Shown: in pieces, positions 23,205 to 38,580 of the stretch
Numbering within the stretch: position 1 is the stretch's first letter
Layout: every line of letters begins with the position of its first letter
Origin: a virus
Lineage: Duplodnaviria > Caudoviricetes
IMG/VR virus record: IMGVR_UViG_3300002835_000006
DNA: 64,000 bases
Direction: 5' to 3' (one strand)
The notes under the pieces: generated by a model
What the model saw: the letters and a program-made list of their open reading frames with translations, nothing else
What the model was told of the DNA's origin: nothing
The model's database searches: none
Translations under genes and position numbers: made by a program

Positions 23205-23954
23205 TTAATCGTTTTTCATTTTAGTTTGAATGGAGATATATAATTTTTTGAATTTTTTAATTGAGCCCCTTATTTCTTTTGTACTAAGGTTAGTCATTTC
23301 CCTGAGAGAGAGTAAAATAATATTTTTATTAAATTTGTTATTTTCTCTTCCTGTGAAAATTGTCTCGTAATTATAAAATAAGTCAATCAGGGCATATCCT
23401 AATTTTTTTTCATTGTCCGACAAAACCTCACAATCAACATATTCTTTTAATTTTTCCAAATAAGTCGATATAACAAGGTTTGTGTCCAAATGGTCTTCAT
23501 CTATTCTGTAAATCATATCAGGACGTTCTTCTATTGTTGAAGATATGTCCTCATAAGATATTTTTCTATTTGTTTCTTTTTGGTCTTTTATTATTTGACC
23601 CATCAAATAGTTCTTACAAATAGTACCAAAATACGAGTAAGCTTTTTTATTTTTTGAAGGTTTGAATTTATCAACCTTCGTCATCAAAAAAGAATGAGTA
23701 TCAACATGGATTTCTTCAAAATCCATATCTTTTCGATAAAGTTTATATCTTCTAATAATAGAAGAAATCATCTTATCTAAAGGAGCTCTTAGAAATTCAT
23801 TATAAATTTTATTTTTTTCTTCGGAGGATTCTGCAATCAAAAATTTTCTAACTGCGGTTTCTTCTCGAACATCAAAATAATTTTCCTTTACTGCTTTTCT
23901 ACCTCTTCTTTTTAACGAAACATCCTCTGTCTTACCTGAAATGGTTTCGGACAT
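23205..23954 (-). CDS. Phage sigma factor, gp55-like (late transcription)
   Basis: N-terminal NYF, region-2-like KFKPSKNKKAYSYFGTICKNYL comparable to the gp55 NFD..K..NP.AY.T motif. Confidence 0.65.
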   Translation of the reverse strand: MSETISGKTEDVSLKRRGRKAVKENYFDVREETAVRKFLIAESSEEKNKIYNEFLRAPLDKMISSIIRRYKLYRKDMDFEEIHVDTHSFLMTKVDKFKPSKNKKAYSYFGTICKNYLMGQIIKDQKETNRKISYEDISSTIEERPDMIYRIDEDHLDTNLVISTYLEKLKEYVDCEVLSDNEKKLGYALIDLFYNYETIFTGRENNKFNKNIILLSLREMTNLSTKEIRGSIKKFKKLYISIQTKMKND

Positions 23955-24760
23955 TATTCACTTGTTGGTTGATATTTTATGGCTCTATCATCAACAAAAA
24001 AATACTCTTGTTTAGCCGTTTTTATCCAAAATCTTACCTCGTCTTCTAACATTTTATCTTCACCAAATTTGTAATTCCAAAACAAAGAACCCTCCCTCAA
24101 GTTTGTATGTTTGTAACCCAATCTAGGTACAGTCATTATCACTGCTGAGTTATAGGTTAGTCTTAGTAGAAATTCGTAGACGAATGTCAGTTTCATAGAC
24201 GGTTTCATATAACCAAAGTCTTCTAAAATTTGTTTTTTAATAACACCACCTGAGGTTTGGAAGTTTTGATATTCTTGTAGAGTATCGTTAGTTAGAAATC
24301 CGATTTCTTGAGTGAAATTGGCGGCAAAAGTTGCCTCATTTGTAAAACCTGCGAAAACACCTTTTTCGTCAGTTTCAACCACTACAGGTAAAAATACTTG
24401 CACTTCAGGGAACGAATCAATATATTTTCTTACGTTATCAAACCAAATATTTGAATACTCATCATCAAATTCGAAAATAGAAATCCATTTACCACTACTG
24501 TTCTTTATACCGTGATTTAATTGTGAAGCAAAATTTGGTGTTTCCTCCCAAAGTAAAAGTTTAACATTTAAATTTCCAAAATCGTAGGATTTAAGTAATG
24601 TGACTAATTGTTCTTCAGCTGTGTGAACAATTACTAATTCTTCGATTTCAGTTTTTTGATTTTTGAGTGATGTTATTGCTTTACCAAAATATTCGTCAAA
24701 ATCTTTAGCTTTGGCTGATTTGATTGGTAAAATTACAGATACAGATATTTTGTTGCTCAT
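23954..24760 (-). CDS. Glycosyltransferase, GT2/GT-A fold
   Basis: ISVILPI, NHGIKNSSGKWISIFEFDDEY (DxD-like). Confidence 0.8.
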   Translation of the reverse strand: MSNKISVSVILPIKSAKAKDFDEYFGKAITSLKNQKTEIEELVIVHTAEEQLVTLLKSYDFGNLNVKLLLWEETPNFASQLNHGIKNSSGKWISIFEFDDEYSNIWFDNVRKYIDSFPEVQVFLPVVVETDEKGVFAGFTNEATFAANFTQEIGFLTNDTLQEYQNFQTSGGVIKKQILEDFGYMKPSMKLTFVYEFLLRLTYNSAVIMTVPRLGYKHTNLREGSLFWNYKFGEDKMLEDEVRFWIKTAKQEYFFVDDRAIKYQPTSE

Positions 24761-24763
24761 ATA

Positions 24764-25810
24764 TTAAAGTTTTGAAATTTGTTCTTCTAATTGATTTGCC
24801 CTTGTGGTCAAGTAACTTTCAAAAAGGTTTATTACGTCAGTTGTAAATTTTTGTTTGCTTTTGAATTGTTCAACAGTTTTATCCATGTTTTCGTAAAGCT
24901 CAGGTTTGATGTTGTCTTCTAACCAATTCTGAACGAAGTCTGCAATAAAATCAGTTATCAATGTCAAATCCGTAATCCAAACCCCGTTTTCTTGAGTCAT
25001 CCAAGAAGGTTGTAAATCAGGTATTTTACCTAATACAGGTACACCACAAGCCATACTTTCTAATGGAAAAGTACCAAAACCACTTTTAGTATCGACCCAC
25101 ACACTAAGAAAACAATCTTTTAGTGTTTTCGCAAATTCTTTTTCACTCAAACCTCTTAGGTCTCTGAATGTGAACCATCTGTATTGAGGAAATCTTAAAT
25201 AAAAAGTTTTGATGATAGAAATAGCATCCTCTTGTTCACGAGTATGTACACCAATAATTGGCATCGGGGGAATCCCTTTTTTTGTGAATGACTCAGATAT
25301 TACAGGTTCTAAAATATCTACTGATGCCTGTCTCATAACTTTTTCAATATACTCTTTTTGAGTCTGACAGGTTGTTATACATTTGTAAACACCGTGTTGA
25401 GCCCAAGATTGTCCAGGTTGTAATGTTTCAAGCATATACGCATATGATTGAGTAAGAACAATTTTAGCACAAGGTAGATTTTTTACTTGTTCCATCACAA
25501 ATCCGAAGAGTTCAGGAATCACCAAAAAATCCTCAGGTGCGATTTGAAGGTTTTGATTTTCAATTGATTGATGTGGGATTGTCATAAATTCAGACTCTAA
25601 CCACTTATCAACACCCATGTAATCATTTTTTTCGTGTAAAATTACAGGGTTGAAATTCGAATTTTTTAATTCCATTGCAATCTGATAGATATATCTAACA
25701 GATGCTCTTGCATTTCCTTTTGTATCTTGTACAAAGAAATAAATTTTTGATTTTTTTTCTCTAAGATTTGTTATCGAGGCTAAAACCTTGTCTTTAGAAA
25801 TATTTTCCAT
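24764..25810 (-). CDS. Glycosyltransferase, GT-B (GT4-like)
   Basis: GFGTFPLESMACGVPVLG nucleotide-sugar binding motif; VIPE motif. Confidence 0.75.
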   Translation of the reverse strand: MENISKDKVLASITNLREKKSKIYFFVQDTKGNARASVRYIYQIAMELKNSNFNPVILHEKNDYMGVDKWLESEFMTIPHQSIENQNLQIAPEDFLVIPELFGFVMEQVKNLPCAKIVLTQSYAYMLETLQPGQSWAQHGVYKCITTCQTQKEYIEKVMRQASVDILEPVISESFTKKGIPPMPIIGVHTREQEDAISIIKTFYLRFPQYRWFTFRDLRGLSEKEFAKTLKDCFLSVWVDTKSGFGTFPLESMACGVPVLGKIPDLQPSWMTQENGVWITDLTLITDFIADFVQNWLEDNIKPELYENMDKTVEQFKSKQKFTTDVINLFESYLTTRANQLEEQISKL

Positions 25811-25811
25811 A

Positions 25812-26090
25812 TTAGTAATGATTGATTAACTTTTTATTTAATAGACTGTTAAAGGCTAACTTAAAAGGAACACTAAGGTTGTTTGTACTTTTCAAACCTA
25901 ATTTATCGTCCATCTCTTCGTTTTCTGACAAAACCACTTCCATCAGCATTTTGACAATTTCAAATTTTACGATGTTGACTTTCATTTCTGTGAATCCACT
26001 AGATGATTCTGAACTAACTTCTGAGATGTCCAAATATTTTTCTAACTCATCTAAGTCAACAAAGTAATTCTCGTTTAGTACTTTTAACAT
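25812..26090 (-). CDS. Hypothetical protein (92 aa)
   Basis: Coupled ORF within operon. Confidence 0.75.
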   Translation of the reverse strand: MLKVLNENYFVDLDELEKYLDISEVSSESSSGFTEMKVNIVKFEIVKMLMEVVLSENEEMDDKLGLKSTNNLSVPFKLAFNSLLNKKLINHY

Positions 26091-26674
26091 ATTTCTTGTA
26101 ATTTATTTTTTAGGTCTTTTATAGATTTTATTTGATGAATTATCTGTGTATCTGAATTATAAGAAGTTTCATATTTTATTAAAGTTTTGTTTTGAGGATG
26201 ATTCAACAATAATTTAGGATTAGCTGTTACAAGTATGTCTACGTTTGACCATAAATTATCCATCGTGATTTCACTATAAAACAACACGTGTTCAATTAAA
26301 CTTCCAAATTTAGATATAAAAAAAAGAGATGCGGGTTTTGATTTACCAATCTCGTCTGAAACAATAATAAATTCGTGTTTATCCCGTAAGTCTAAATATA
26401 TACTATTTAAGTCCAAAAGTCCATTTGGTTCTACTGAACCTGCATGACCAAAAATTTCCATGGTGTGTTCTTGATATAAAAAATTATAAAGTTCATCGTT
26501 GTCCTTAAAGGCAAGATGTTCCAAAATATTCAAGGTTGTTATATCTGATTTCACTTTATACTCGAACTCCGATTCCTCCTTAAAAGGGTTGTCAATATAC
26601 CACTTCTCGTATTCTTGTTGGATTTTTCCAAGAGTATTTCGCAAAACACCATTTATTTCGATTCCAATTTTCAT
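26084..26674 (-). CDS. HAD-fold 5'(3')-deoxyribonucleotidase-like protein with degenerate motif I
   Basis: MKIGIEINGVLRN instead of canonical IDIDGVL; overall NT5C-like layout. Confidence 0.55.
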   Translation of the reverse strand: MKIGIEINGVLRNTLGKIQQEYEKWYIDNPFKEESEFEYKVKSDITTLNILEHLAFKDNDELYNFLYQEHTMEIFGHAGSVEPNGLLDLNSIYLDLRDKHEFIIVSDEIGKSKPASLFFISKFGSLIEHVLFYSEITMDNLWSNVDILVTANPKLLLNHPQNKTLIKYETSYNSDTQIIHQIKSIKDLKNKLQEIC

Positions 26675-27402
26675 TCTTCGTATCTTTTCAATATTTGTGT
26701 TATCAAAGGATTTCTTACAACATCAGTATCCTTGAATTCATGAATTCCGACATCATTGAAATCTCTGAATTTTTTCATAGCATCCCATAACCCTGTCTGA
26801 GTTTTATCTTTATGTCTGTCAAATTGTTCCAAATCTCCTGATATGAAAAATTTAGAATTAAAGCCAATTCGAGTTAAAAGAAGTTTCATTTGACTTGGGG
26901 TCGAGTTTTGAGATTCTTCAAAAATTAAAATTGAATTGTCAATATTCATACCTCTCATGTAGGCAAGAGCAAAAACTTCAATTGCTTCAATCTCTTTTAA
27001 TTTTTCACGTATGTCTTTTCCGATGATTTTATTTAAAAGATAATATGATGGGAATATATAGGGGTCAAGTTTTTCTTCTACACCACCTGGAAGACTACCT
27101 AATTTTTCTTCCGCCTCAACCGCTGGTCTTACAATTATAATCTTCTCAAAAGGGGTTTCAGGGTCAAATAATAAGTCTACCGCACATTTCATTGCAATAT
27201 AACTCTTACCAACACCAGCTGGTCCTGAACAAATTGTAATCTGGTTATTGGATAATTTTTCGTAGTATTCTTTTTGACTTTCGGATAAAAATTTTTGTTT
27301 TGTTTTCTTTTTTAGAATTGACGTTATAAGTTCTTTTTTTGTTTTGAAATTTGAATTTTCTAAAGTTGGGGTAGGAGCTGGATTTTTTTTTGTTCTACTC
27401 AT
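26671..27402 (-). CDS. phoH: PhoH-family ATPase
   Basis: GPAGVGKS, RPAVEAEEKLGSLPG, AYMRG, ESQN, SGDLEQFD. Confidence 0.93.
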   Translation of the reverse strand: MSRTKKNPAPTPTLENSNFKTKKELITSILKKKTKQKFLSESQKEYYEKLSNNQITICSGPAGVGKSYIAMKCAVDLLFDPETPFEKIIIVRPAVEAEEKLGSLPGGVEEKLDPYIFPSYYLLNKIIGKDIREKLKEIEAIEVFALAYMRGMNIDNSILIFEESQNSTPSQMKLLLTRIGFNSKFFISGDLEQFDRHKDKTQTGLWDAMKKFRDFNDVGIHEFKDTDVVRNPLITQILKRYEE

Positions 27403-28499
27403 TTAACTTTGATTTTTTTTGTTTTAGAGGGTTCTCGTTTATAGACCGTTTTTCCACCATCGGGACTTTCATAAATCCATGGAGTTTCTTTTTCTTTTGT
27501 GTCAATTTGTGATTTTATCCAATTGAAGGTTTTTCTTAGACCTAATGATAGAGGTTGACTGACCTCCCATCCAATTTTTTCTCTAAAGAGTTTATTATCT
27601 GAGTTTCTACCTTTAACACCTAAAGGACATTTGAAACCATACTTTTTGAAGAATTCTTCACCTTCTATATTTTTTATTTTAATATTTTTTCCTGAAAATT
27701 CAATAGCCATTTGTGCTAATTGATTGATTGTCACCATTTCTTCACTACCTATGTTTACAGGTCCTGTAAATTTCGAATACATTAGTCTGAGAACGGCTTC
27801 AATACATTCATCAACATAGAGGAATGACCTTGTCTGTTGTCCGTTACCCCAAACTTCTAATTCGCCACCATCGGGCAATTCTGCTGCTTTTCTACACATA
27901 GCCGCTGGTGATTTTTCACGTCCCCCCTGCCAAGTTCCTTGGGGTCCAAATATATTATGGAATCGGGCAATACGTACATCCAATCCATAGTTTCTATGGT
28001 AGGCCAAATAAATTCTTTCTGAAAATAGTTTTTCCCACCCATATTCAGAATCGGGATTTGCTGGATAAGCCGAACTTTCTTCACAGTTTGGGTTACTTGC
28101 ATCCAATTGGTTATGTTCAGGATACATACAAGCTGACGAGGAATAAAAAACTTTTTTTACTTTCTTTTTTACACATTCACTAGCAACATTCAAATTTATC
28201 AAAGATGAATTATGCATCAAATTTGCATCGTTCTCACCTGTAAAAATGTATAGTGCACCGCCCATATCTGCGGCTAATTGATATAATTCATCAACTCCCT
28301 CTTCTATAACGAGGTCAACAACCTTAGGGTCTGTTAAATCCCCTAAGATAAATTCATGACAAATTTCGTTTTGGAAGAAATATTCATGTTTTTTGATATC
28401 ACAGATTCTTACATGTGCTCCTTCGTTTTTTAATCGTTTGGCCAAATGACCACCGATAAATCCACCACCTCCTAACACTACTACTTTTTTTTGTTTCAT
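27399..28499 (-). CDS. GDP-mannose 3,5-epimerase-like NAD-dependent epimerase
   Basis: GGGGFIG, QLAADMGG, YSSSACMYPE, AYPANPDSEYGWEK, GGREKSPAAMCRK. Confidence 0.85.
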   Translation of the reverse strand: MKQKKVVVLGGGGFIGGHLAKRLKNEGAHVRICDIKKHEYFFQNEICHEFILGDLTDPKVVDLVIEEGVDELYQLAADMGGALYIFTGENDANLMHNSSLINLNVASECVKKKVKKVFYSSSACMYPEHNQLDASNPNCEESSAYPANPDSEYGWEKLFSERIYLAYHRNYGLDVRIARFHNIFGPQGTWQGGREKSPAAMCRKAAELPDGGELEVWGNGQQTRSFLYVDECIEAVLRLMYSKFTGPVNIGSEEMVTINQLAQMAIEFSGKNIKIKNIEGEEFFKKYGFKCPLGVKGRNSDNKLFREKIGWEVSQPLSLGLRKTFNWIKSQIDTKEKETPWIYESPDGGKTVYKREPSKTKKIKVK

Positions 28500-28502
28500 A
28501 AA

Positions 28503-29141
28503 TTAGATTTTATTGTATAATGTATCAGATTCGAATCTTTGATAAATCTTGTACCCTAATTGTTCCATCAACATATCAAATTCTTTGAGATTCAATTTAT
28601 TTTCATAGCTTTTTACATCTAAATGTGCTGTTTCTGCGTAAATAAAGTAGGGTTTGAATCTTCCCATAGAAGATAAAACTTTATCCTCAGCACCTTCGAC
28701 ATCTATATGAATATAATCAATTTTTGGTATATTATTTTTCATACAGAAAGTGTCAAGTCTGATAGTTTCTACCTCATATCCGTTTATATCATATGTCACA
28801 GTATGATTGAGAGCTTCATTTGTGTTTTCTTTTAATAGTGGTTTTACGATTGAACCAGCATATCTCCAATCAATATTTTTTTTAGTTTCAAAAATACTTG
28901 GGTAGAATGTTGCGGTTCCGTTTTCATCTGAAAATGCGACATTGAATGTTTTTACCCCAAACTTATTTGCAACGCGATAATGTCTTTCGTAGTTTATTTT
29001 GTCAGCTTCGATTGAATAAACATCTGAATTTGGAAAAGTTCTCTTGAAACCTATTCCTTCGCTGAAATCACAAGCACCTATGTCGAACAAAACTAAGTTC
29101 GAAATTTCTGAGAGTTTCTGTCTTACAATATTATGTAACAT
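28503..29141 (-). CDS. FkbM-family SAM methyltransferase
   Basis: FDIGAC, SIEAD, TIRLDTF, IHIDVEGAE. Confidence 0.85.
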   Translation of the reverse strand: MLHNIVRQKLSEISNLVLFDIGACDFSEGIGFKRTFPNSDVYSIEADKINYERHYRVANKFGVKTFNVAFSDENGTATFYPSIFETKKNIDWRYAGSIVKPLLKENTNEALNHTVTYDINGYEVETIRLDTFCMKNNIPKIDYIHIDVEGAEDKVLSSMGRFKPYFIYAETAHLDVKSYENKLNLKEFDMLMEQLGYKIYQRFESDTLYNKI

Positions 29142-29951
29142 TTACATTTCATTTATAATTTTTTTTATACCCTCTCTGAGACTAATTTTTGGGTTCCAAA
29201 AATTTAATATATAAGGGTCGGGTTCATTTCTTTTGTCTAACTGAACAGTATCGATTTCGTTAGATGGTGAGACATTACAAGGGATGTATTCTGATATAAT
29301 TTCAGCAACTTCCAAAATTGAATTCCACTCAAAATTTGTAATGTGTAAATTCTGAGTTCTGTCAATTTCATTATATTTTTGAGAAAGGATATACAAAGCA
29401 TTTGAACAATCTTCAGCATGTAGAAATTGTCGTTGTTCCGTTCCATTAGTCATCATAGTAATGTTTCCTTGCTTGGCTTTGATGATAAAATCAGTAATTA
29501 CGTGTGACTTTTCCAAATCATGTTCAGGACCATACACGTTCCAAAATTTGACAGTTAAACCACCGAGAATTTTTGCAAATGTTTCACCGAGAGACTTTGT
29601 AATTCCATAAGGGGAATATGACATATTGGCCATCTGTGAAGATGCAAAGATGAATGGCTTGTTATATTTTTTCAAAGTTTGAAATGTGTATAGAGTTAGT
29701 TTTGTATTATTTTCAATAAACTCATAAGTGTGTTGGTATTTTTTGAGGTATCTAGAACCTCCGACGTCAAATGCTAAGAACATAACAAAATCGACTTTGG
29801 GGATTATAGAATCCAACACATCAGGAATTCGTAAATCTTCTTCTGTGGAGTTCACAATATCGAATTCTATTACTTCATTTCCATTATTTTTCAAGAATTT
29901 ACAAAGTTCTGCACCTATTTGGCCCGCAGAACCCAATACCAAATATTTCAT
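29142..29951 (-). CDS. Extended SDR nucleotide-sugar epimerase/dehydratase
   Basis: LGSAGQIG, FASS, YGITK (YxxxK), NVYGP, RQFLHAED. Confidence 0.85.
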   Translation of the reverse strand: MKYLVLGSAGQIGAELCKFLKNNGNEVIEFDIVNSTEEDLRIPDVLDSIIPKVDFVMFLAFDVGGSRYLKKYQHTYEFIENNTKLTLYTFQTLKKYNKPFIFASSQMANMSYSPYGITKSLGETFAKILGGLTVKFWNVYGPEHDLEKSHVITDFIIKAKQGNITMMTNGTEQRQFLHAEDCSNALYILSQKYNEIDRTQNLHITNFEWNSILEVAEIISEYIPCNVSPSNEIDTVQLDKRNEPDPYILNFWNPKISLREGIKKIINEM

Positions 29952-29952
29952 A

Positions 29953-30786: not shown

Positions 30787-30789
30787 ATA

Positions 30790-31407: not shown

Positions 31408-31410
31408 ATC

Positions 31411-32025
31411 TTATCTTTTTACGAAAACCCCACCACACAATCCACCGTGAGTGATTTCAAATTTATAATTATTTTTTTCAACCCATTCTCTGAAGGCTAA
31501 TCTTTCATGGTTGTCAAAGTATGATTCCCCGCCATGCCAATCATCAAATCTAATAAAAATTTCATCCCATATACATTTGCTCAAAAAATCTAAGGACGAT
31601 ACAGTCGGTTCATAAATGTCCACGTCAATATTACAAACTGCTACTTTTGAAATACCATAGAAGGATGGTTCGTTTAATTTGTGAACATCTTCTATAATCA
31701 TTTGAATATTTGGGTATGGTACAAATCTTTGTTGTAATTCTTCGATTGATTTGGGTACATTCGGAATATCTTTATAAAGAGGGTTGTAAATTGAAAATGC
31801 CCCTTTTACCCAATCGCTTGTTTGGGGTATACCTTTTTTAGTTTCCTCCAACCCCATAAAATGGTCTATCGTGAAAACTTTTTTATCAGGAAATGAACTT
31901 GCAAGTTCTTTGGTACTTCCTCCGGTGAATGTTCCAAATTCCAAAACGTCGCCAACTAAGTTGTATTTTTTTGAAGTTATGAAACTTTTGATTCCTTGAA
32001 CGTGCAAACTGTGTCCGAAACTCAT
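31411..32025 (-). CDS. TylF/MycF-like O-methyltransferase, copy B
   Basis: Same motifs; obvious paralogue of copy A. Confidence 0.75.
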   Translation of the reverse strand: MSFGHSLHVQGIKSFITSKKYNLVGDVLEFGTFTGGSTKELASSFPDKKVFTIDHFMGLEETKKGIPQTSDWVKGAFSIYNPLYKDIPNVPKSIEELQQRFVPYPNIQMIIEDVHKLNEPSFYGISKVAVCNIDVDIYEPTVSSLDFLSKCIWDEIFIRFDDWHGGESYFDNHERLAFREWVEKNNYKFEITHGGLCGGVFVKR

Positions 32026-32038
32026 ATTGTTATTTTTT

Positions 32039-32878
32039 TTATATTGGTTTAATAAGTCCTCCTTGGGTCCATTCCGTCGGAACTAAGGTCCAATTAGACT
32101 CGAAAATATCTTTGGCATTCGGTCCTTTAGGTCCGAACCAAGTAGACGGGGCAATAATTTTTTTATTTTTGTTTTTGTTTAAAAAAGTTGCCCACCACGA
32201 AAAAGTAGAATTTGGAATTATATGATTTTCACAAAGCCCCATAAGATACATTTCTTTCCAATCTTCATTTTCTTTTGGAAAAACAACGTTAGGAAAAGAA
32301 AAATTATTCATAACGAAATCTCTACTACCAGGCCACCTTGATTCATCCTCAGTAAAAAGAAATACTGTGGAATATTCCCCAATCAATTTTAATGCTTCAG
32401 AAATATATTCTATTGATATGGTTGGATGAATGTCAGGAAATTGTAAATATTCACCCCTTCTGATGTGAATAGACAGGGTTTTTGGTTGGTTCAGTTGAGG
32501 ATATTTTTCTCTTAGTTCCTGAACAACATTCAATGAGGGTTGAAATGTTTCTCTTATTTTATCATCGAGACCAAACCAATTTTTGGTGCTTTGAAAGTAT
32601 CCATAAAAGGATGTATTTCCTTGTAACGGGTTGATTTCGCTGTATTCAAAGGGACCTTCATGGACTGTTGTGTAGTGTTCCATTTTGTCCACGAATTTCA
32701 AATTTCGGAAAACATTGTTGGTGTAATTATGTACAGGTCTTCCTTGACCAGGTGTGTTGGAATAAGGGAGAAATTCAACCTCTCTATTATGTTTCCACCC
32801 TTGTGCTAATGCATGAGATGCTTGAAACAATTGATTTCCTAAACCACCCATGAAATGACAAGTAATTTTATTTCCCAT
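32039..32878 (-). CDS. Glycosyltransferase GT11 (alpha-1,2-fucosyltransferase-like)
   Basis: GGLGNQLFQ, SIHIRRGEY, NSTFSWW. Confidence 0.88.
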   Translation of the reverse strand: MGNKITCHFMGGLGNQLFQASHALAQGWKHNREVEFLPYSNTPGQGRPVHNYTNNVFRNLKFVDKMEHYTTVHEGPFEYSEINPLQGNTSFYGYFQSTKNWFGLDDKIRETFQPSLNVVQELREKYPQLNQPKTLSIHIRRGEYLQFPDIHPTISIEYISEALKLIGEYSTVFLFTEDESRWPGSRDFVMNNFSFPNVVFPKENEDWKEMYLMGLCENHIIPNSTFSWWATFLNKNKNKKIIAPSTWFGPKGPNAKDIFESNWTLVPTEWTQGGLIKPI

Positions 32879-32892
32879 AGAGTAAAATAAAT

Positions 32893-33546
32893 TTAATTTT
32901 TATCATTTAAAAATAAAGTATCCCCCCAATTATGTGCCCATGGATGATAATATATTTTTTTATATCTTTTTGATTGCATGAAGTCTACAATGTCCTTCTC
33001 TAATTTTTGTCCTGCATACATTTCAATTTGACAAGTTTCTAATTGTATAATTCTGAAGTCAGTGGGCTGAAATAAAATTTCACTTGAATTCAAAACATCA
33101 AATTCAGAACCTTGAATATCCATATTCACATAATCAAATTCTGTCTCAAGGTTATTTTTTTTGAGAAAATCATCTATATTCACGGATTGTACCTTTACCG
33201 ACTTTATTTTTTTTATGTGGGGATATTGTTTGGAATGTTCTTTTAGTTCTAACAAAGAAGAACAACCTGTGTTACTCATATCATTACTATAAATCAGGTT
33301 GAAATCCAACTCTTTGTTTTCGTTAGATACTGCAACTTGGAAAATTTTTTGTGAAATGTGAGAATGTTTAAGAACATTTTTTTCCAAACCTTCAATCAAT
33401 TCAGGATTGGCTTCGAACCAGTAAATCAAGTCAGGATTCAATTTTAAATAAAATTCAATTTCATTTCCCAAATGTGCACCCAAATGGAGTATTTTTTTGA
33501 TTGGTCTTTCTTTGTGCAGTTCTAAAATTCTTTGATGTAAGCTCAT
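32893..33546 (-). CDS. FkbM-family SAM methyltransferase
   Basis: LHLGAHLG, WFEANP, NMDIQGSE. Confidence 0.85.
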   Translation of the reverse strand: MSLHQRILELHKERPIKKILHLGAHLGNEIEFYLKLNPDLIYWFEANPELIEGLEKNVLKHSHISQKIFQVAVSNENKELDFNLIYSNDMSNTGCSSLLELKEHSKQYPHIKKIKSVKVQSVNIDDFLKKNNLETEFDYVNMDIQGSEFDVLNSSEILFQPTDFRIIQLETCQIEMYAGQKLEKDIVDFMQSKRYKKIYYHPWAHNWGDTLFLNDKN

Positions 33547-33548
33547 TT

Positions 33549-34259
33549 TTATAATTCTTTATATGGTTGTTTATTTTTTAATAAATTATGATTTTCTATA
33601 ACTTTAGAGAAATTTACTTTGTGGTCGTTGATTGGGTTCCCTTCATTATAAATGTAAAGGATATCTGATATGTACCTAAAATGTTTGAGACCAGCCATTT
33701 CAACCATAGGCCAAATAAATGCAACATCTCCAGCAACAGGCCAATATACTCCATTTGGGTCTCTGAGGTCTTCGTCTTTAATTTTTTTCCATAACCAAGA
33801 TTTCCAAGTACGTAAATGGGATAATGTGAATGCTTGCTTGCGGAGATTTTCTGTTGTCTGTAATGGTCTATTAAACCCTTGACGACCGTCATGATATTTA
33901 AAAGAACCACTGGTAATCCAGACGTCTTCATCTTTATAAACTTCATCAATTTTTCCTAATACATTTGGGTTGGCTAACCAATCATCACCATTCACCTCGA
34001 CACATATCTCTTCATCAGGTAAATTTAATCCATTTATTATCTGATTGTAATTTCCGGGTGGGTAATGTTTCTCCTGATTTTCAATCAAAATGAATCTATT
34101 ATCTTTTTCGATAGCCCTTTTTATATGTTCCCGTGTATTATCTGTAGACATATCGTCGGTAATGTAACAAGTGAAATCCCTGAACCTTTGACTCATTAAA
34201 CTGAATATACATTTTTCGATATAATTTTCACAATTATATGACGCGGTTAAAATTGTCAT
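33549..34259 (-). CDS. Glycosyltransferase GT2
   Basis: ILTASYNCENYIEKCI, ITDDMSTD, VNGDDWL. Confidence 0.85.
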   Translation of the reverse strand: MTILTASYNCENYIEKCIFSLMSQRFRDFTCYITDDMSTDNTREHIKRAIEKDNRFILIENQEKHYPPGNYNQIINGLNLPDEEICVEVNGDDWLANPNVLGKIDEVYKDEDVWITSGSFKYHDGRQGFNRPLQTTENLRKQAFTLSHLRTWKSWLWKKIKDEDLRDPNGVYWPVAGDVAFIWPMVEMAGLKHFRYISDILYIYNEGNPINDHKVNFSKVIENHNLLKNKQPYKEL

Positions 34260-35887
34260 GATAAAATCTTTATATACATATTTTTTATTTCGTTAGCCAC
34301 ATTTGAACTATAGTATTTTTCAAGGTCTGTCGGAGGGTCAAATTTTTCTTTAGATGTAATTACTCCCAAAGAATCAACTTTATAAATCCACCCTGGTTTT
34401 CCCGAAAGCCAACCCTCTATGGTTGTTCTTCCAAGTTGTATTCCTGCGGTTTCGGAACAACCCTTCAAATATTTTTCAACGTTCCATGTAGAAGGAAAAT
34501 ATTTTACGTTATGTTCTCTGAGTATTGCATCTAAAAAATTACCCCTGTTTTCTCCGACAACCCATAATTCTTTATTTATTGATTGAGTATATTCAATTAG
34601 GTCCATTAAAGTTTCTCTCCTTAGATAATCTAAGGTTCCAACAAACAAAACATATCCCGACTCATTCAAATCAGATTTAACAAACTTTGATTCATCAATC
34701 GGATTGTAAATTATTTCGATATCATTTTCTGGTATTTGGAATTCGGATATTAGATTTTCTTTTATTTCAGGTCTTATTGCGATATATTTTTTTATGGAGG
34801 GGTGTATTACAGGGTTTTCCAGTTCTATTACTTCAGAATGAATTGTACAAATTTTATCAATTTCAGGATAAAAGTTTAATATTCTTTCAGCTACAGGTTT
34901 GTGTTGAATGTGAATTATATCAAAATTCACTTCGGACACCCTGTACATCATGTTCACTTGTGAAACTTTGTACCCATTACCATCATCGAATCCCCATTTA
35001 CCGTCTCCCAATTTGAAACCTGGAGCTTGTTCAAAGGACAAACATTTTATCCCATTTTTCTTAGCTAAATCTGTAAGTGGACCACCAATTTGTGACATTA
35101 CAGTTACGTCACAATTTAGTTTCTTTAGACCTCTAGCTAATTCATAGACATACAATTCAGAACCAGTGAAAGTCTTGAAATTTAGACAAGTAAGTAAAAC
35201 ATTTATTTTATCCTTATCTTTGTCGAATTGTATTTTTTGTGGTAGTTTAGAAGAATACTTTTGCACAAACAATTGTCGATTTGATTCCCATTGTTCGTTG
35301 GTCATACCAATAGATTGGTGAGTAATCCTTATGTTAGTTATTACACCAACTTTAACACCTTCCAAATAGTTTTCGAAACAAAATGGAATGTCGTAGAAAT
35401 GGAATCCTTTGAATTCTTCGTTGAAATTTTTCTTTATTCTTTTTTTGTGAATTGCTATAAATAATCCATCAACAACAACTACGGGTTTAATATCTTTACC
35501 GATGGGTTCTGAGTACTTAGATTCCCATTTTTTTGTACCTTGTTGGTGGTTTACTATCCCATACATCTTCCTACGATTTTCCCACCATTGTCCACTCTCA
35601 GGCATATGAGTTGTACCCGCAACACCTAAAATACCAAACTCTGAATTATTAAAATGTTCCAATAGTTTTGGATACCAAGCGGAGGTATCAAAGGTTATAT
35701 CGTCGTGGCATAGAACGACAATATCCGTAGTCGCTTCATTTATAATCTCATTATATATTTCTGATAGAGATTTTTCTCCGTTATTTACTTTTTCTATAAC
35801 AAGATTTTTTTTAAAACCAGAGCTTTTTATAAAATATTCTTTTAGCTTGGAATTTGATTCTCGGGTTGAATATCCTATTGTAATCAT
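34256..35887 (-). CDS. Bifunctional glycosyltransferase: GT-A N-terminal domain plus GT-B C-terminal domain
   Basis: LCHDDI, GILGVAG, VVVDG, FHFYD in N-half; FTGSELYVYELARGL, RTTIEGWLSGKP in C-half. Confidence 0.75.
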   Translation of the reverse strand: MITIGYSTRESNSKLKEYFIKSSGFKKNLVIEKVNNGEKSLSEIYNEIINEATTDIVVLCHDDITFDTSAWYPKLLEHFNNSEFGILGVAGTTHMPESGQWWENRRKMYGIVNHQQGTKKWESKYSEPIGKDIKPVVVVDGLFIAIHKKRIKKNFNEEFKGFHFYDIPFCFENYLEGVKVGVITNIRITHQSIGMTNEQWESNRQLFVQKYSSKLPQKIQFDKDKDKINVLLTCLNFKTFTGSELYVYELARGLKKLNCDVTVMSQIGGPLTDLAKKNGIKCLSFEQAPGFKLGDGKWGFDDGNGYKVSQVNMMYRVSEVNFDIIHIQHKPVAERILNFYPEIDKICTIHSEVIELENPVIHPSIKKYIAIRPEIKENLISEFQIPENDIEIIYNPIDESKFVKSDLNESGYVLFVGTLDYLRRETLMDLIEYTQSINKELWVVGENRGNFLDAILREHNVKYFPSTWNVEKYLKGCSETAGIQLGRTTIEGWLSGKPGWIYKVDSLGVITSKEKFDPPTDLEKYYSSNVANEIKNMYIKILS

Positions 35888-36057
35888 TATTCTAATCTTT
35901 TTTTCTTAGATTCTTTAATTATTTCGTGTGCGGTCTTGGTCGGTTCTTTTTTTGCTAACGATATACAATCTATAATGAACTCGGCAAGAACGTGTTTTTT
36001 ATCTAATTTTTTTATTAGCTCTACGAGTGTGTCCAAATTTTCATAATATTTTCCCAT
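35887..36057 (-). CDS. Small hypothetical protein (56 aa), absent from ORF track
   Basis: MGKYYENLDTLVELIKKLDKKHVLAEFIIDCISLAKKEPTKTAHEIIKESKKKRLE; TAATG coupling to downstream GT. Confidence 0.65.
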   Translation of the reverse strand: MGKYYENLDTLVELIKKLDKKHVLAEFIIDCISLAKKEPTKTAHEIIKESKKKRLE

Positions 36058-36068
36058 AAAAAAAGTTT

Positions 36069-36674
36069 TTAAATACCTGTACTTCCAAACCCATTGTCAC
36101 CACGGTCTGTTTGGTCAAAACTTTCAACTTCTTCAATTTTCACAAAGTTACCGTTTACCACAGGACATAAGACACCCTGAGCAACTTTCATATTTTTATT
36201 TATTGTGAAAGGGGAATTGTTTGTATTAAAAATGGGAACCTTTATTTCTCCTGAATAACCTTGGTCTACTGTACCCGGTGAATTCAAAACCATAATACCT
36301 TGATTGATTGCCAATCCACTTTTTGTCCTAATTTGAATTTCATATCCTTCGGGAAACTGAAAACTCAATCCTGTCGGAATTAAAGCCCTACCAAATGCGG
36401 GTATTTCAACTTCTATTGTTGAGTATAAATCAAACCCTGAGTCCGATGGGTAATTATATGAAGGTAGAGTCGCGTCATCATTTAGTTTTTTTACTTTCAG
36501 ATGTGTTGTTTTTGATTCTTTAATAAATTCCTGACTGAGGTCATCAAATGACATAGAAACCAAAGAATCTAATTCATCTTCGGAATCAACATCCAACCCT
36601 TTTGAATTTGCTTCTGATGTTAGTTTTTCTAATAATTGTAAAAGTTCCTCAAACTCCTTATTATTTTCACTCAT
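36069..36674 (-). CDS. dut: Trimeric dUTPase with acidic N-terminal extension
   Basis: SGFDL, IPTG, RTKSG, GTVDQGYSGE, KVAQ, RGDNGFGSTG. Confidence 0.93.
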   Translation of the reverse strand: MSENNKEFEELLQLLEKLTSEANSKGLDVDSEDELDSLVSMSFDDLSQEFIKESKTTHLKVKKLNDDATLPSYNYPSDSGFDLYSTIEVEIPAFGRALIPTGLSFQFPEGYEIQIRTKSGLAINQGIMVLNSPGTVDQGYSGEIKVPIFNTNNSPFTINKNMKVAQGVLCPVVNGNFVKIEEVESFDQTDRGDNGFGSTGI

Positions 36675-37372
36675 TTTAATTGATTTAATTTTTTAATAAC
36701 ATTTATCAAAGATAGGACATCTGCTTCACAGTAATTCTTGATACCTTCGTAATCTTTTTTTGTCCAAAATGCGTCATGAACTTTATTTCCTGTAACCTCC
36801 ATAGTTTTAGGTGAAGGTACCCCTAAACAAACACACATCAACTCCAAAGATGCAATAGAACCGTAACCTCCGTATTGCCATACTTCTTTAGTGTCGAGGG
36901 CTTTTATTTCCCAAGGTTTAGTATCGTGACCTGGCAAAATTTTAGGAGGTAAAATTCCATTTATTATCATTCTTTTTGCCAACACAGGAATATCAAAACC
37001 TTTTACATTATGTCCACACAGATAGAATCCGAGTTCACCCACCTTGTGTAGAATTTTCTGAACATCTAATAATAACTTTTTTTCGTCTACATCATTATGA
37101 GATTCAATTTTTACTTCTCCTTTTTTGTTTATAAAGGCAACACTTACACAAACAATTCGATTGAATTCTGGTACAAGAGCAGACTTATTGACAAACATTT
37201 CTGATATTGGTTTGTTTGCATCCTCAGGAAATCTTTTTTGAAACCAATCAAAATAGTTTTCAAATTGAAAAGAGAGAGGCTCATTATTTTTCTTTAATGA
37301 ATCCCAATCTTTTTCAACACCAACAGTTTCAATGTCTAAAAATAATAATTTGTCAATAGGAATGTTTATCAT
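36671..37372 (-). CDS. 3'-5' exonuclease related to PolB exonuclease domain (DEDDy)
   Basis: FLDIET, GHNVKGFDIP, YCEADV. Confidence 0.85.
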   Translation of the reverse strand: MINIPIDKLLFLDIETVGVEKDWDSLKKNNEPLSFQFENYFDWFQKRFPEDANKPISEMFVNKSALVPEFNRIVCVSVAFINKKGEVKIESHNDVDEKKLLLDVQKILHKVGELGFYLCGHNVKGFDIPVLAKRMIINGILPPKILPGHDTKPWEIKALDTKEVWQYGGYGSIASLELMCVCLGVPSPKTMEVTGNKVHDAFWTKKDYEGIKNYCEADVLSLINVIKKLNQLK

Positions 37373-38580
37373 ACAAGTGATTTATAAAATTCTGCTCTTT
37401 GTTTTGTAACGACTCTCAAATCGTATTTATCTTTTACTGATTCATAAAGTCTTTCTCCCAAATCTTTAACCCAATTGGGATTTTTTTGAAGTTTTTCAAT
37501 ATACTTAGCCCAATCTGAGTGATTTCTGTTTTCATCCACAAGGAGTGCATTACCATCAACAAAATTACCATTTTGAAGTGAATGTACCAAATCAATTGTA
37601 TATGGTCCTAAATTAGAGGCGATTATAGCTTTTTTATAAAATCCGGCTTCAATTACTTTCAATTGGGATTTCATTCTGTTGAACATTGTATTTTTGATTG
37701 GTGCCAAAGATACGTCAAATTTTGAATAGTTTTTTGCGTAGGATTGAACAGGTTTGGTCCAAACACGAACATAGGATTCACTCAATTCATCAACATATTC
37801 AACTTGTGAAAAGTCCAATAAATATTTTTTATATGATTCTGAAACTATTGAATAATCTTGAGTGAAAATTTTTTCATAATTGGCCCACACTGTCTCGTGA
37901 GGTAGTATGTTTCTTTTTTTATGTTCACCATTTTGAGGATTGATTTCGGTAATAGTTCCCCTAGTATCAAATCCACAAAGCACAAATTGTAAATTTTTAG
38001 ATAAAGAAGTTAGCTTACTGAATGAACCATCTAATAATTGGATGTCATGTAAATGTGAGGAGCCTCCCAACCAACCTATTCGTAATCTATCAGACTCGGT
38101 GTTTTTTTCTTTGAATTGTGACTCATCGGGATTTATTGCGTTAGGAAAAACAACCACGTTTTTATTTGTCTTTTTAATTTCATCTGCAAACAACGAAGTA
38201 GTGGTTGTAACGTACTTAGCTTCTTTCAAATTAGCAACAATCTTCTCATTTATTTTATTGAATCTAATGATATCGTGGATTGGATGTTCTTTACCGGGCA
38301 TCCAATAATCATCGATGTCATCAATTGTGATAACATCTGTAGACTGTAGTTTTTTTAACATGTCATTTGATTTCTCGAAGTCAGGGTTCAAACTTCTATG
38401 AAATGCTACGATTTGGTATTTTTTGAAAAATTCTATGTCCTCTATGGGTACATCGTAAATTATATCCACATGAAAATCATCAGGATAAAGATTTTGTAAA
38501 AAAATATGAGGGTCTACAGACCTAAATTTACCAACCCCTGTGCGGTCAGAAGGAATAACAAGTACATTGATTTTTGACAT
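37369..38580 (-). CDS. Glycosyltransferase, GT-B fold
   Basis: IGWLGGSSHLHD, DVSLAPI..FNRMKSQLKVIEAG. Confidence 0.8.
   Translation of the reverse strand: MSKINVLVIPSDRTGVGKFRSVDPHIFLQNLYPDDFHVDIIYDVPIEDIEFFKKYQIVAFHRSLNPDFEKSNDMLKKLQSTDVITIDDIDDYWMPGKEHPIHDIIRFNKINEKIVANLKEAKYVTTTTSLFADEIKKTNKNVVVFPNAINPDESQFKEKNTESDRLRIGWLGGSSHLHDIQLLDGSFSKLTSLSKNLQFVLCGFDTRGTITEINPQNGEHKKRNILPHETVWANYEKIFTQDYSIVSESYKKYLLDFSQVEYVDELSESYVRVWTKPVQSYAKNYSKFDVSLAPIKNTMFNRMKSQLKVIEAGFYKKAIIASNLGPYTIDLVHSLQNGNFVDGNALLVDENRNHSDWAKYIEKLQKNPNWVKDLGERLYESVKDKYDLRVVTKQRAEFYKSLV

What the first reader, a model, noticed from the sequence alone, without database searches (positions are those of the whole stretch)
23954..38580. 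15-kb glycan operon with two fucosyltransferase families but a GDP-mannose 3,5-epimerase instead of GMD/Fcl
Seen: GT10, GT11, GT2 x2, GT-B x2, a GT-A/GT-B fusion, a second SDR, FkbM x2 and TylF x2, plus a GME-like epimerase; no recognisable GDP-mannose 4,6-dehydratase in the window. Known: GME makes GDP-L-galactose (and GDP-L-gulose), and GDP-L-Gal is the 6-hydroxy analogue of GDP-L-fucose that some fucosyltransferases accept. Inference: the phage may build an O-methylated, L-galactose-containing H/Lewis-like glycan, an unusual product for a phage.
Basis: partly seen in the sequence, partly recalled or inferred. Interest (0 to 1): 0.7.

Follow-up and report, generated by a model that had tools for sequence, protein, structure and literature searches.

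The report
Phage sugar-coat island with L-galactose enzyme
A giant lake-water phage carries a fast-changing block of sugar-building genes centred on an enzyme that turns GDP-mannose into the rare sugar GDP-L-galactose; the gene content is real, but the same layout already sits unrecognised in published ocean cyanophage genomes, and no phage glycan containing this sugar has been measured.

Summary
All named genes are on the minus strand at 23954-38580. The 366-aa SDR is a true GDP-mannose 3,5-epimerase (GME): E 1e-93 to the Arabidopsis structure, all eight diagnostic residues present. No GMD or GDP-fucose synthase is in the window.

The block is not a pure glycan operon. PhoH, dUTPase, an exonuclease and two unknown genes lie inside it.

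- The window's own genome was not available. The closest complete relative (321 kb, terminal repeats, same cassette) has no GMD, fucose synthase or sugar nucleotidyltransferase, so GDP-mannose must come from the host.
- Only 2 of 50 related records carry a true GMD.
- The order GT11-GT10-SDR2-GME-PhoH is conserved. A sister lineage has GMD and a fucose-synthase-like gene at the same site.
- SDR2 co-occurs with GME in 52 of 59 viral loci, so the donor may be a modified L-hexose.
- However, 28 of 68 GME loci lack GT10/GT11, and host GDP-fucose is not excluded.

It is not unusual for phages. At least 598 IMG/VR hits exist. Cultured cyanophage S-SSM7 has GME, SDR2, GT10 and GT11 without GMD, and S-SCSM1's GME is published.

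All 25 proteins tested lack membrane helices, which favours cytoplasmic glycosylation, perhaps of the nearby Thr-Pro-repeat proteins that this scan noted earlier.

The parts
27399..28499 (-). GDP-mannose 3,5-epimerase (GME) homologue, 366 aa. It is the conserved anchor of the island, next to phoH.
   Evidence: PDB 2c59 (Arabidopsis GME) E 1.2e-93; the next SDR family scores 4e-26. Residues equivalent to S143, C145, Y174, K178, N203, K217, R243 and R306 are all present, and are invariant in 163 homologues. dN/dS is 0.03 against the nearest relative.
29142..29951 (-). SDR2: a short (269 aa) extended SDR that is a conserved partner of GME. Its specificity is unknown.
   Evidence: Pfam Epimerase 87 bits. 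It has the S104/Y115/K119 triad. His150 aligns with the catalytic His of GDP-fucose synthase and with K217 of GME; Gln106 sits at the Cys-acid position. GME lies within 10 kb in 52 of 59 SDR2-centred viral loci. It is 53% identical to S-SSM7 gp255. The fold search returns only generic NDP-sugar SDRs.
29953..30786 (-). GT10-family (alpha-1,3/4-fucosyltransferase-type) glycosyltransferase, 277 aa.
   Evidence: PF00852 49 bits. The motif YMFSVAIEN..YFTEK aligns with solved alpha-1,3-FucTs. It is 43% identical to S-SSM7 gp256.
32039..32878 (-). GT11-family (alpha-1,2-fucosyltransferase-type) glycosyltransferase, 279 aa.
   Evidence: PF01531 88 bits. Motif I reads HIRRGEY.
30790..32025 (-). Two tandem TylF/CmcI-like SAM methyltransferase paralogues (205 and 204 aa).
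   Evidence: PF05711 at 17.9 and 18.9 bits, below the cut-off. The two are 59% identical. Atlas neighbours are TylF/Methyltransf_24 clusters.
28503..29141 (-). FkbM-family methyltransferase 1.
   Evidence: PF05050 50.9 bits and TIGR01444 63.5 bits.
32893..33546 (-). FkbM-family methyltransferase 2.
   Evidence: PF05050 72.8 bits and TIGR01444 59.2 bits.
33549..34259 (-). GT2 glycosyltransferase (GT2b).
   Evidence: PF00535 58.5 bits.
34256..35887 (-). GT-A/GT-B fusion glycosyltransferase, 543 aa.
   Evidence: PF13712 103 bits at residues 37-211 and PF13439 47.6 bits at residues 242-400. Conserved in relatives.
37369..38580 (-). Probable GT-B glycosyltransferase (weak call), conserved at the upstream edge of the framework.
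   Evidence: PF13692 E 4.8e-4, below the cut-off. 97% identical in L001, dN/dS 0.018.
23954..25810 (-). Conserved GT2 (23954-24760) and probable GT-B (24764-25810), downstream of phoH.
   Evidence: PF00535 38.7 bits; PF00534 E 1.6e-3; PDB 8xsg putative glycosyltransferase E 3.8e-4. Present in 55 of 80 GME loci. dN/dS about 0.02.
25812..27402 (-). PhoH (26671-27402) and two conserved unknown ORFs (92 and 196 aa). They are embedded in the block, and their role in the glycan is unknown.
   Evidence: PF02562 207.7 bits. Syntenic in relatives.
36069..37372 (-). dUTPase and a PolB-type 3'-5' exonuclease. These are DNA-metabolism genes embedded in the block and are not glycan genes.
   Evidence: PF00692 93.8 bits and PF10108 59 bits.
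28492..33884 (.). Hypervariable cassette. It shows no nucleotide similarity to the nearest relative, although the flanks are 83.5-86.5% identical.
   Evidence: blastn of the window against L001. Proteins in this stretch are 52-79% identical to L001, against 88-98% in the flanks.
41238..49008 (+). Candidate acceptors and initiator: three proteins with Thr-Pro repeat tracts (41238-47667) and a GT60/PF11397 transferase (47743-49008).
   Evidence: The TP tracts were recomputed here. PF11397 scores 226.8 bits. The link to the GME island is inference only.

Best explanation
This is a glycan-diversification island of an uncultured freshwater T4-like jumbo phage of about 320 kb. The host is probably a Flavobacteriales/Bacteroidota bacterium.

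Proposed steps:
1. The conserved anchor gene is a genuine GDP-mannose 3,5-epimerase. It takes host-made GDP-mannose and produces GDP-L-galactose, with GDP-L-gulose as a by-product.
2. A conserved partner enzyme, SDR2, probably converts part of this into a further GDP-L-hexose.
3. The GT10 and GT11 fucosyltransferase-family enzymes encoded just upstream most likely transfer this L-galactose-type sugar. Other transferases of the block build the rest of the chain.
4. FkbM-type and TylF/CmcI-like methyltransferases O-methylate sugars.
5. All the enzymes are soluble. No lipid-carrier, flippase or polymerase gene is present. Assembly therefore happens in the cytoplasm, most likely on phage proteins, perhaps the Thr-Pro-repeat proteins encoded 3-9 kb away.
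6. The middle of the island is swapped between close relatives, as expected for an exposed, selected surface structure.

Status of each point:
- Shown: gene identities, GME hallmarks, synteny, absence of GMD/Fcl in the window and in the complete proxy genome, purifying selection.
- Inferred: the donor used by GT10/GT11, the reaction of SDR2, methylation of sugars, the acceptor.
For: GME identity:
- E 1e-93 to the Arabidopsis GME structure, with a 220-bit gap to the next SDR family.
- All eight residues that the GM35E review uses to separate GME from GalE and GMER are present, and are invariant in 163 homologues.

No phage route to GDP-fucose or GDP-mannose:
- None in the window.
- None in the complete terminal-repeat genome G002. 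G002 has the same cassette content as the window, minus one FkbM gene.
- A true GMD occurs in only 2 of 50 related records.

Coupling between GME and the FucT-family genes:
- All 16 GT11 orthologue loci (56% identity or more) show the order GT11-GT10-SDR2-GME-PhoH.
- Sister lineage L117/L118 keeps the same framework but has GT11-like, GT10-like, Fcl-like, DegT and GMD genes beside phoH, and no GME.
- SDR2 loci carry GME in 52 of 59 cases and GMD/Fcl in 4 of 59.
- The set recurs independently in marine cyanophage S-SSM7: GME, an SDR2 orthologue (53% identical), a GT10 orthologue (43% identical), a methyltransferase and three GT11 genes, with no GMD in 232,878 bp. P-TIM68 has GME plus two GT11 genes and no GMD.
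- FucTs of several families accept GDP-L-Gal (PMC8787198).

Other support:
- Function: dN/dS is 0.02-0.05 for GME and the conserved GTs. The exact cassette is held in 20 lake or freshwater metagenome runs from 19 studies.
- Soluble machinery: no 19-residue window reaches the transmembrane threshold in 25 proteins across 22821-41184. By contrast, bacterial GME in Kaistella palustris sits in a locus with EpsG and Bac_transf.
- Origin: the phage GME clade (support 0.999) is nested in Weeksellaceae/Bacteroidota sequences that are 79-84% identical.
Against: - No biochemical data exist for any phage GME, SDR2 or these GTs.
- G001 carries GMD and a genuine GDP-fucose synthase (E 5e-80 to human FX) inside the same module, with an 84%-identical GT10. 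This fits GT10/GT11 being true fucosyltransferases.
- 28 of 68 GME loci lack GT10/GT11/SDR2 homologues, so another transferase must also be able to use the GME product.
- The synteny counts come largely from one phage clade and are not independent events.
- The window's own genome beyond 64 kb was not searchable.
- A host supply of GDP-fucose cannot be excluded. Related Bacteroidota genomes do carry GMD-like genes in some GME loci.
- Peripheral GTs can also act on lipid-linked intermediates, so the lack of membrane proteins does not prove a protein acceptor.
Confidence: 0.5

Rival explanations
1. GT10 and GT11 are ordinary fucosyltransferases that use host-made GDP-L-fucose. GME (with SDR2) feeds a different transferase of the block, for example one of the conserved GT2, GT-B or fusion enzymes. 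The glycan would then contain both L-fucose and an L-galactose-type sugar.
For: - Relative G001 encodes GMD and a true GDP-fucose synthase between SDR2 and GME, with GT10 84% and GT11 68% identical to the window's.
- 28 of 68 GME loci have no GT10/GT11 homologue, so GME's product has another user.
- The GT10 nucleotide-sugar motif is canonical.
- Cyanophage GT11s next to GME keep the canonical HxRRGD motif.
Against: - GMD/Fcl are absent from 48 of 50 related records and from the complete proxy genome.
- GT11-GT10-SDR2-GME are contiguous in 16 of 16 orthologue loci.
- The GMD and Fcl-like genes replace SDR2/GME at the same site in a sister lineage that keeps FucT-like genes.
- The same GMD-less set recurs in S-SSM7 and P-TIM68.
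Confidence: 0.28
2. The island remodels the surface polysaccharide, LPS or O-glycoproteins of the infected host rather than phage proteins. The soluble GTs would act at the cytoplasmic face on host lipid-linked intermediates. The effect would be to block superinfection or alter recognition. This is the classic 'LPS gene' reading of cyanophage clusters.
For: - Published interpretation of the homologous cyanophage clusters as LPS or cell-wall modification genes (PMC3037559; PMC9602691).
- Bacterial GME homologues lie in Wzy-type polysaccharide loci.
- The phage GME is nested among Bacteroidota genes.
Against: - No initiating phosphoglycosyl transferase, flippase, polymerase or ligase, and no membrane helix, in 25 proteins of the block.
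- The phage encodes Thr-Pro-repeat proteins and a GT60 initiator nearby.
- A lytic jumbo phage has little time to rebuild a surface polymer. This last point is inference.
Confidence: 0.25
3. Some of the transferases glycosylate modified bases of the phage DNA, as T4 does. This would explain why the glycan genes are interleaved with dUTPase, the exonuclease and PhoH.
For: Only the gene neighbourhood: dUTPase, a 3'-5' exonuclease and PhoH lie inside the block.
Against: - No base-hydroxymethylase or related gene was seen in the window.
- Known DNA glycosylation uses UDP-sugars and one or two transferases. It does not use a GDP-L-hexose pathway with about eight GT domains and four methyltransferases (established knowledge of T-even phages).
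- The cassette is hypervariable, like a surface antigen.
Confidence: 0.04
4. The cluster is non-functional 'stuffer' DNA recently captured from a host.
For: Sullivan et al. 2010 raised this possibility for cyanophage LPS clusters.
Against: - dN/dS is 0.02-0.05 for GME and the conserved GTs.
- All ORFs are intact and tightly packed.
- Synteny holds across dozens of contigs and in distant cyanophages.
- The identical cassette is present in 19 studies.
Confidence: 0.02

Closest known systems
'LPS gene' clusters of large T4-like cyanomyoviruses (S-SSM7, S-SM2, P-SSM2; Sullivan et al. 2010, PMC3037559), also P-TIM68
   Same: S-SSM7 has a GME orthologue (57.5% identical), an SDR2 orthologue (53%), a GT10 orthologue (43%), a methyltransferase and three GT11-family genes within 10 kb, and no GMD in the whole genome. 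P-TIM68 has GME plus two GT11 genes and no GMD. Some of these clusters also lie near phoH.
   Different: The phage family (Kyanoviridae), host (marine picocyanobacteria) and gene order differ. Those genes are annotated only as 'nucleotide-sugar epimerase' or 'glycosyltransferase'. Their function was left open ('functional or stuffer DNA'). No FkbM pair or GT-A/GT-B fusion was seen in the stretch examined.
Cyanophage S-SCSM1 cell-wall gene set (PMC9602691)
   Same: This is the only phage paper found that names a GDP-mannose 3,5-epimerase (ORF123) together with fucosyltransferases and other GTs.
   Different: S-SCSM1 also encodes GMD (ORF121) and GDP-fucose synthase (ORF122) directly beside GME. 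The window and most of its relatives lack both.
Characterised GDP-mannose 3,5-epimerases (Arabidopsis GM35E, PDB 2C59; Methylacidiphilum fumariolicum GM35E; review PMC8787198)
   Same: Extended-SDR enzyme with the S/Y/K triad, the Cys/Lys acid-base pair, and R306, R243 and N203. E 1e-93 over 334 residues of the window protein.
   Different: It is phage-encoded. It has an 11-residue insertion before the R306 motif and a roughly 30-residue C-terminal extension. Its activity is untested.
Helicobacter pylori Lewis-antigen LPS synthesis (GT10 FutA/B plus GT11 FutC fed by GMD/Fcl)
   Same: It combines GT10 and GT11 family transferases. The GT10 C-terminal motif aligns with H. pylori FucT structures 2nzw and 5zoi.
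   Different: H. pylori uses GDP-fucose and builds on lipid-linked LPS. Here there is no GMD/Fcl and no membrane machinery. Acceptor specificity, and therefore any Lewis or H structure, is not inferable.
Virus-encoded cytoplasmic protein glycosylation (chlorovirus capsid glycans with O-methylated sugars; glycosylated mycobacteriophage virions). Recalled from established literature, not re-read here.
   Same: A set of soluble virus-encoded GTs and methyltransferases that work independently of a lipid carrier, with candidate structural-protein acceptors.
   Different: The enzyme families and sugars differ. No L-galactose pathway is described there. The protein acceptor is not demonstrated here.

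Membership tests
GDP-mannose 3,5-epimerase (GM35E, EC 5.1.3.18) | Extended SDR with an N-terminal glycine NAD-binding motif and the catalytic Ser/Tyr/Lys triad (At S143, Y174, K178) | tested here: met
   GGGGFIG at residues 10-16; S122, Y153 and K157 align with the Arabidopsis residues.
GDP-mannose 3,5-epimerase (GM35E, EC 5.1.3.18) | Cys/Lys acid-base pair (At C145, K217). GMER has His at the base position; GalE has neither residue. | tested here: met
   C124 and K196 are present, and are invariant in 163 homologues.
GDP-mannose 3,5-epimerase (GM35E, EC 5.1.3.18) | Cys-acidifying Arg (R306), diphosphate-binding Arg (R243) and conserved Asn (N203) | tested here: met
   R298, R224 and N182.
GDP-mannose 3,5-epimerase (GM35E, EC 5.1.3.18) | Converts GDP-D-mannose to GDP-L-galactose (with GDP-L-gulose as by-product) | not testable with these tools
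   Needs an enzyme assay.
GT10 alpha-1,3/4-fucosyltransferase | Pfam PF00852 C-terminal domain above the cut-off, with the conserved FxxxxxEN...YxTEK donor-binding motif | tested here: met
   49 bits against 23.9. YMFSVAIENDNSDTYFTEK aligns to solved FucTs.
GT10 alpha-1,3/4-fucosyltransferase | Uses GDP-beta-L-fucose as donor | not testable with these tools
   GDP-L-Gal is a documented alternative donor for FucTs. No GMD/Fcl is present in the window or in the proxy genome.
GT11 alpha-1,2-fucosyltransferase | Pfam PF01531 above the cut-off | tested here: met
   88.2 bits against 23.9.
GT11 alpha-1,2-fucosyltransferase | Motif I HxRRxD | tested here: inconclusive
   The motif reads HIRRGEY, with Glu for Asp, in the window and all 16 close orthologues. 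It is canonical HxRRGD in distant or GMD-linked homologues. GME-linked cyanophage GT11s keep Asp, so the change is a lineage trait and not a donor signature.
De novo GDP-L-fucose pathway (GMD + GMER/Fcl) | Presence of a GDP-mannose 4,6-dehydratase and a GDP-fucose synthase | tested here: not met
   None in the window or in complete relative G002. Both are present in G001 (415.9 bits; E 5e-80 to human FX). The window's own full genome was not available.
Wzx/Wzy-type surface polysaccharide or O-antigen locus | Initiating phosphoglycosyl transferase, flippase, polymerase; integral membrane proteins | tested here: not met
   No such Pfam families. The maximum Kyte-Doolittle 19-mer value is below 1.6 in all 25 proteins of 22821-41184. 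The bacterial GME locus of Kaistella has EpsG and Bac_transf.
FkbM methyltransferase family | PF05050/TIGR01444 above the cut-off | tested here: met
   50.9 and 72.8 bits; 63.5 and 59.2 bits.
TylF / CmcI-type sugar O-methyltransferase | PF05711 or PF13578/PF04989 above the cut-off | tested here: inconclusive
   17.9 and 18.9 bits against a cut-off of 23. No significant PDB hit. Atlas neighbours are TylF/Methyltransf_24 clusters at 0.96-0.97.

The most novel reading that the evidence does not exclude
GME + SDR2 + GT10 (with or without GT11) is an unrecognised, widely distributed phage module. It makes a GDP-L-galactose-derived sugar, possibly a GDP-L-hexose not yet described. It installs this sugar, O-methylated, on the phage's own mucin-like Thr-Pro-repeat virion proteins in the host cytoplasm. 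Freshwater Bacteroidota jumbo phages and marine cyanomyoviruses would then share a virus-encoded protein O-glycosylation system based on L-galactose-type sugars instead of fucose.
Probability: 0.2. Interest if true: 0.75.

Novelty: new member of a known kind. Interest (0 to 1): 0.45.

Why it matters
Phage 'LPS/glycan' gene clusters have been known since 2010, but nobody knows what they build or on what.

This analysis adds three points:
- The central epimerase in hundreds of phage contigs is a GDP-mannose 3,5-epimerase, mostly mis-annotated as UDP-glucose 4-epimerase.
- It usually comes without the fucose pathway, but with a dedicated partner SDR and fucosyltransferase-family enzymes.
- The same trio occurs in a cultured cyanophage (S-SSM7). 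A concrete experiment is therefore possible.

If the sugar is L-galactose or a derivative on virion proteins, it would be a new kind of viral glycan and a source of L-galactosyltransferases. If not, this is one more variable phage glycan island.

Tried and rejected
- Own genome: none is held for the window, so gmd/fcl elsewhere in this phage could not be checked directly. Complete relatives served as proxies.
- Megablast of the 14.6 kb against GenBank phages: no match.
- PHROGs on ten flanking unknown proteins: one uninformative hit.
- Sigma-70 promoter and terminator scans: fewer sites than in shuffled sequence, so uninformative. TATAAATA occurs 11 times against 6.9 expected, which is not significant.
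- SDR2: the AlphaFold model (pLDDT 88) and Foldseek/PDB gave only generic NDP-sugar epimerases, decarboxylases and reductases, with no specificity. A protein database search returned only generic names.
- PDB sequence searches found nothing for GT11, the TylF-like protein or the 403-aa GT-B.
- Asp-to-Glu change in GT11 motif I as a marker of GDP-L-Gal use: rejected, because GME-linked cyanophage GT11s keep Asp.
- Expression: no RNA holder was listed among sequencing runs.
- Bacterial GME loci were searched for the phage GT10/GT11: no close homologues.

Full report
WHAT THE WINDOW IS
The window encodes a T4-type large terminase, a gp20 portal, a gp23 major capsid protein, a prohead protease and a family-B DNA polymerase. 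The closest capsid proteins in GenBank belong to an uncultured 484-kb phage, Microcystis phage Mel-JY01 and Flavobacterium phages, at 34-42% identity. No whole genome is held for the window, and megablast finds nothing in GenBank phages. IMG/VR relatives include three contigs of 317-326 kb that CheckV estimates as complete, one of them with direct terminal repeats. The exact cassette sequence is held in 20 lake or freshwater metagenome runs from 19 studies. Earlier notes of this scan call the phage a freshwater jumbo phage of Bacteroidota. My GME tree and the run labels agree with that.

THE OBSERVATION
In transcription order they are:
- probable GT-B, 37369-38580
- 3'-5' exonuclease
- dUTPase
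- a 181-bp gap
- GT-A/GT-B fusion, 34256-35887
- GT2, 33549-34259
- FkbM, 32893-33546
- GT11, 32039-32878
- two TylF-like paralogues, 31411-32025 and 30790-31407
- GT10, 29953-30786
- SDR2, 29142-29951
- FkbM, 28503-29141
- GME, 27399-28499
- PhoH
- two unknown ORFs
- probable GT-B, 24764-25810
- GT2, 23954-24760

Most neighbouring genes overlap or are 0-15 bp apart. The co-directional block continues on both sides, from about 16.6 to 41.2 kb. The two GT-B calls and the two TylF calls score below the Pfam cut-offs. The TylF calls have weak independent support from the Atlas, and the 348-aa GT-B has a weak PDB glycosyltransferase hit. A genuine GMD from a relative finds nothing in the six frames of the window. 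Pfam scans of 58 ORFs, nearly all of the window's ORFs of 100 aa or more, find no GMD, fucose synthase or sugar nucleotidyltransferase.

THE EPIMERASE IS A TRUE GME
Against all PDB sequences, the five best hits are plant GDP-mannose 3,5-epimerases (E 1e-93 to 8e-92). The next SDR family scores E 4e-26. The GM35E review lists the residues that separate GME from GalE and from GDP-fucose synthase: S143, Y174, K178, C145, K217, R306, R243 and N203. All eight align with identical residues in the window protein. All eight are invariant across 163 sequences: the window, 80 IMG/VR, 80 bacterial and two cyanophage sequences. Against the nearest relative, dN/dS is 0.03.

COMPARATIVE ANATOMY
The region has a conserved framework and a variable middle. 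The nearest relative, L001, is 83.5-86.5% identical in DNA across window positions 17429-28491 and 33885-38587. It shows no nucleotide similarity across 28492-33884. The framework is:

GT-B – exonuclease – dUTPase – GT-A/GT-B fusion – [variable GT/MT cassette] – GME – PhoH – two unknown ORFs – GT-B – GT2.

This framework recurs in dozens of contigs. Other cassettes carry UDP-glucose dehydrogenase or CmcI-type methyltransferases. In a sister lineage the cassette carries a cytidylyltransferase, sialyltransferase-like GTs, a DHQ-synthase-like enzyme and a DegT aminotransferase.

IS GME THERE 'INSTEAD OF' GMD/Fcl?
Points in favour:
- Of 50 related records, only two have a GMD above the NCBIfam cut-off.
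- The complete terminal-repeat genome G002 has the window's cassette content in the same order, minus one FkbM gene. It has no GMD, no fucose synthase and no NTP-transferase. GDP-mannose must therefore come from the host, and this phage type has no route of its own to GDP-fucose.
- All 16 loci found with the GT11 protein at 56% identity or more show GT11-GT10-SDR2-GME-PhoH in the same order.
- In the sister lineage L117/L118 the same framework holds GT11-like and GT10-like genes (35-37% identical) with an Fcl-like gene, DegT and a 70%-identical GMD directly beside PhoH. It has no GME. The site therefore carries either a GMD-based or a GME-based sugar supply next to FucT-family transferases.

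Points against a simple substitution:
- G001 has GMD and a bona fide GDP-fucose synthase (E 5e-80 to human FX) inserted between SDR2 and GME. Its GT10 is 84% identical to the window's.
- Among 68 GME loci with at least 6 kb upstream, 28 lack any GT10, GT11 or SDR2 homologue.

GME is therefore the near-core gene, and the FucT-type genes are frequent but optional users or neighbours.

SDR2 IS AN OVERLOOKED PARTNER
This 269-aa SDR keeps the Ser/Tyr/Lys triad. It has His at the position of the catalytic His of GDP-fucose synthase (Lys in GME), and Gln where both of those enzymes have the catalytic Cys. In 59 SDR2-centred viral loci with at least 3 kb on both sides, GME lies within 10 kb in 52, GT10 in 39 and GMD/Fcl in 4. 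A high-confidence model matches only generic NDP-sugar epimerases, decarboxylases and reductases. I infer that SDR2 acts on the GME product or on a GDP-sugar related to it. The transferred sugar may therefore be a derivative of L-galactose. This is inference.

THE PATTERN ALREADY EXISTS IN PUBLISHED PHAGES
GME orthologues (52-58% identical) occur in 37 GenBank phage records. All are cyanomyoviruses or marine single-cell viral contigs. All but S-SCSM1 are annotated generically.
- S-SSM7 has GME, a 53%-identical SDR2, a 43%-identical GT10, a methyltransferase and three GT11-family genes in 10 kb. It has no GMD in 232,878 bp.
- P-TIM68 has GME and two GT11 genes without GMD.
- Sullivan et al. 2010 described these as 'LPS gene' clusters of unknown function, some near phoH.
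- The S-SCSM1 paper names GMD, Fcl, GME and fucosyltransferases.

The recurrence in a distant phage family is independent support for a functional module. It also lowers the novelty of the finding.

WHERE THE GLYCAN GOES
None of 25 proteins between 22821 and 41184 has a hydrophobic segment of transmembrane strength. No initiating transferase, flippase or polymerase is present. By contrast, the Kaistella palustris GME lies among EpsG, Bac_transf, RmlA-type and dehydratase genes. Three proteins at 41238-47667 carry long Thr-Pro tracts, and a GT60-type transferase follows at 47743-49008. All three complete relatives keep that transferase 19-27 kb from GME. A protein acceptor is therefore the more economical reading. 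Action on host lipid-linked intermediates is not excluded.

ORIGIN
The window's GME clade (24 viral sequences, support 0.999) is sister to Chryseobacterium and Kaistella sequences that are 79-84% identical. It is nested within Bacteroidota. This fits acquisition from Flavobacteriales-type hosts.

VERDICT
The gene content and the absence of GMD/Fcl are real. The GDP-L-galactose step is well supported. Transfer by the GT10/GT11 enzymes is plausible, at about even odds. The 'H/Lewis-like' structure and the acceptor are open. The configuration is common and already present in published genomes, though never interpreted in this way. The most useful outcome is a testable module (GME, SDR2, GT10, GT11) in a cultured phage.

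Noticed in passing
window 41201-41208 and 43481-43488 (+): The T4 late-promoter-like octamer TATAAATA sits 30 and 8 bp upstream of the start codons of two Thr-Pro-repeat protein genes. No copy on the minus strand lies inside the glycan block. The overall count is not significant (11 against 6.9 expected).
   Followed up: partly
window 57045-58541 (-): A 498-aa protein has a complete Fe/Mn superoxide dismutase (both Pfam domains, residues 27-216) fused to about 280 further residues with no family match.
   Followed up: no
window 60324-60689 (-) and 58564-60312 (-): A SET-domain protein (55.9 bits) lies next to an SNF2-family helicase in a phage genome.
   Followed up: no
L117:9800-20558 (IMGVR_UViG_3300021962_007682), also L118: The sister-lineage cassette occupies the same framework site. 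It holds a cytidylyltransferase-cupin fusion, GT29/CST-I-like sialyltransferase-type genes, a 3-dehydroquinate-synthase-like enzyme, a classical SDR, a DegT aminotransferase, an Fcl-like gene and GMD. This suggests an acidic-sugar (ulosonic-type) pathway together with a GDP-6-deoxyhexose or perosamine pathway.
   Followed up: partly
L004/L103 (G001) 14374-15327 of L103; also 14 further GME loci: A 317-aa protein with no Pfam match lies directly upstream of GME in 15 loci (40-45% identical). It is a further unknown GME neighbour.
   Followed up: partly
L126:9072-10004 (Kaistella palustris): The bacterial GME is also immediately preceded by an SDR (310 aa, Epimerase 205 bits) that is not an SDR2 homologue. 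GME-plus-SDR pairing may be general.
   Followed up: no
window 27399-28499 (-), residues about 287-297 and 337-366: The phage GME has an 11-residue insertion before the R306-equivalent motif, and a Lys-rich C-terminal extension that is absent from the plant enzyme.
   Followed up: no
G003 (L011 record) about 321-326 kb and 1-564: The third complete relative carries extra dehydratase-like (170 bits to gmd) and Fcl-like genes at the contig ends. This looks like a second sugar-nucleotide cluster away from the GME island.
   Followed up: no
window 27399-33546: This exact cassette (99% or more of the sampled 31-mers) is held in 20 lake or freshwater metagenome runs of 19 studies released between 2016 and 2025. 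This variant is therefore persistent and widespread, even though the site is hypervariable between relatives.
   Followed up: partly
window 35888-36068 (-): The only sizeable gap in the block (181 bp) lies between dUTPase and the GT-A/GT-B fusion. Relatives L001 and L010 have a 79-82-aa ORF there.
   Followed up: no
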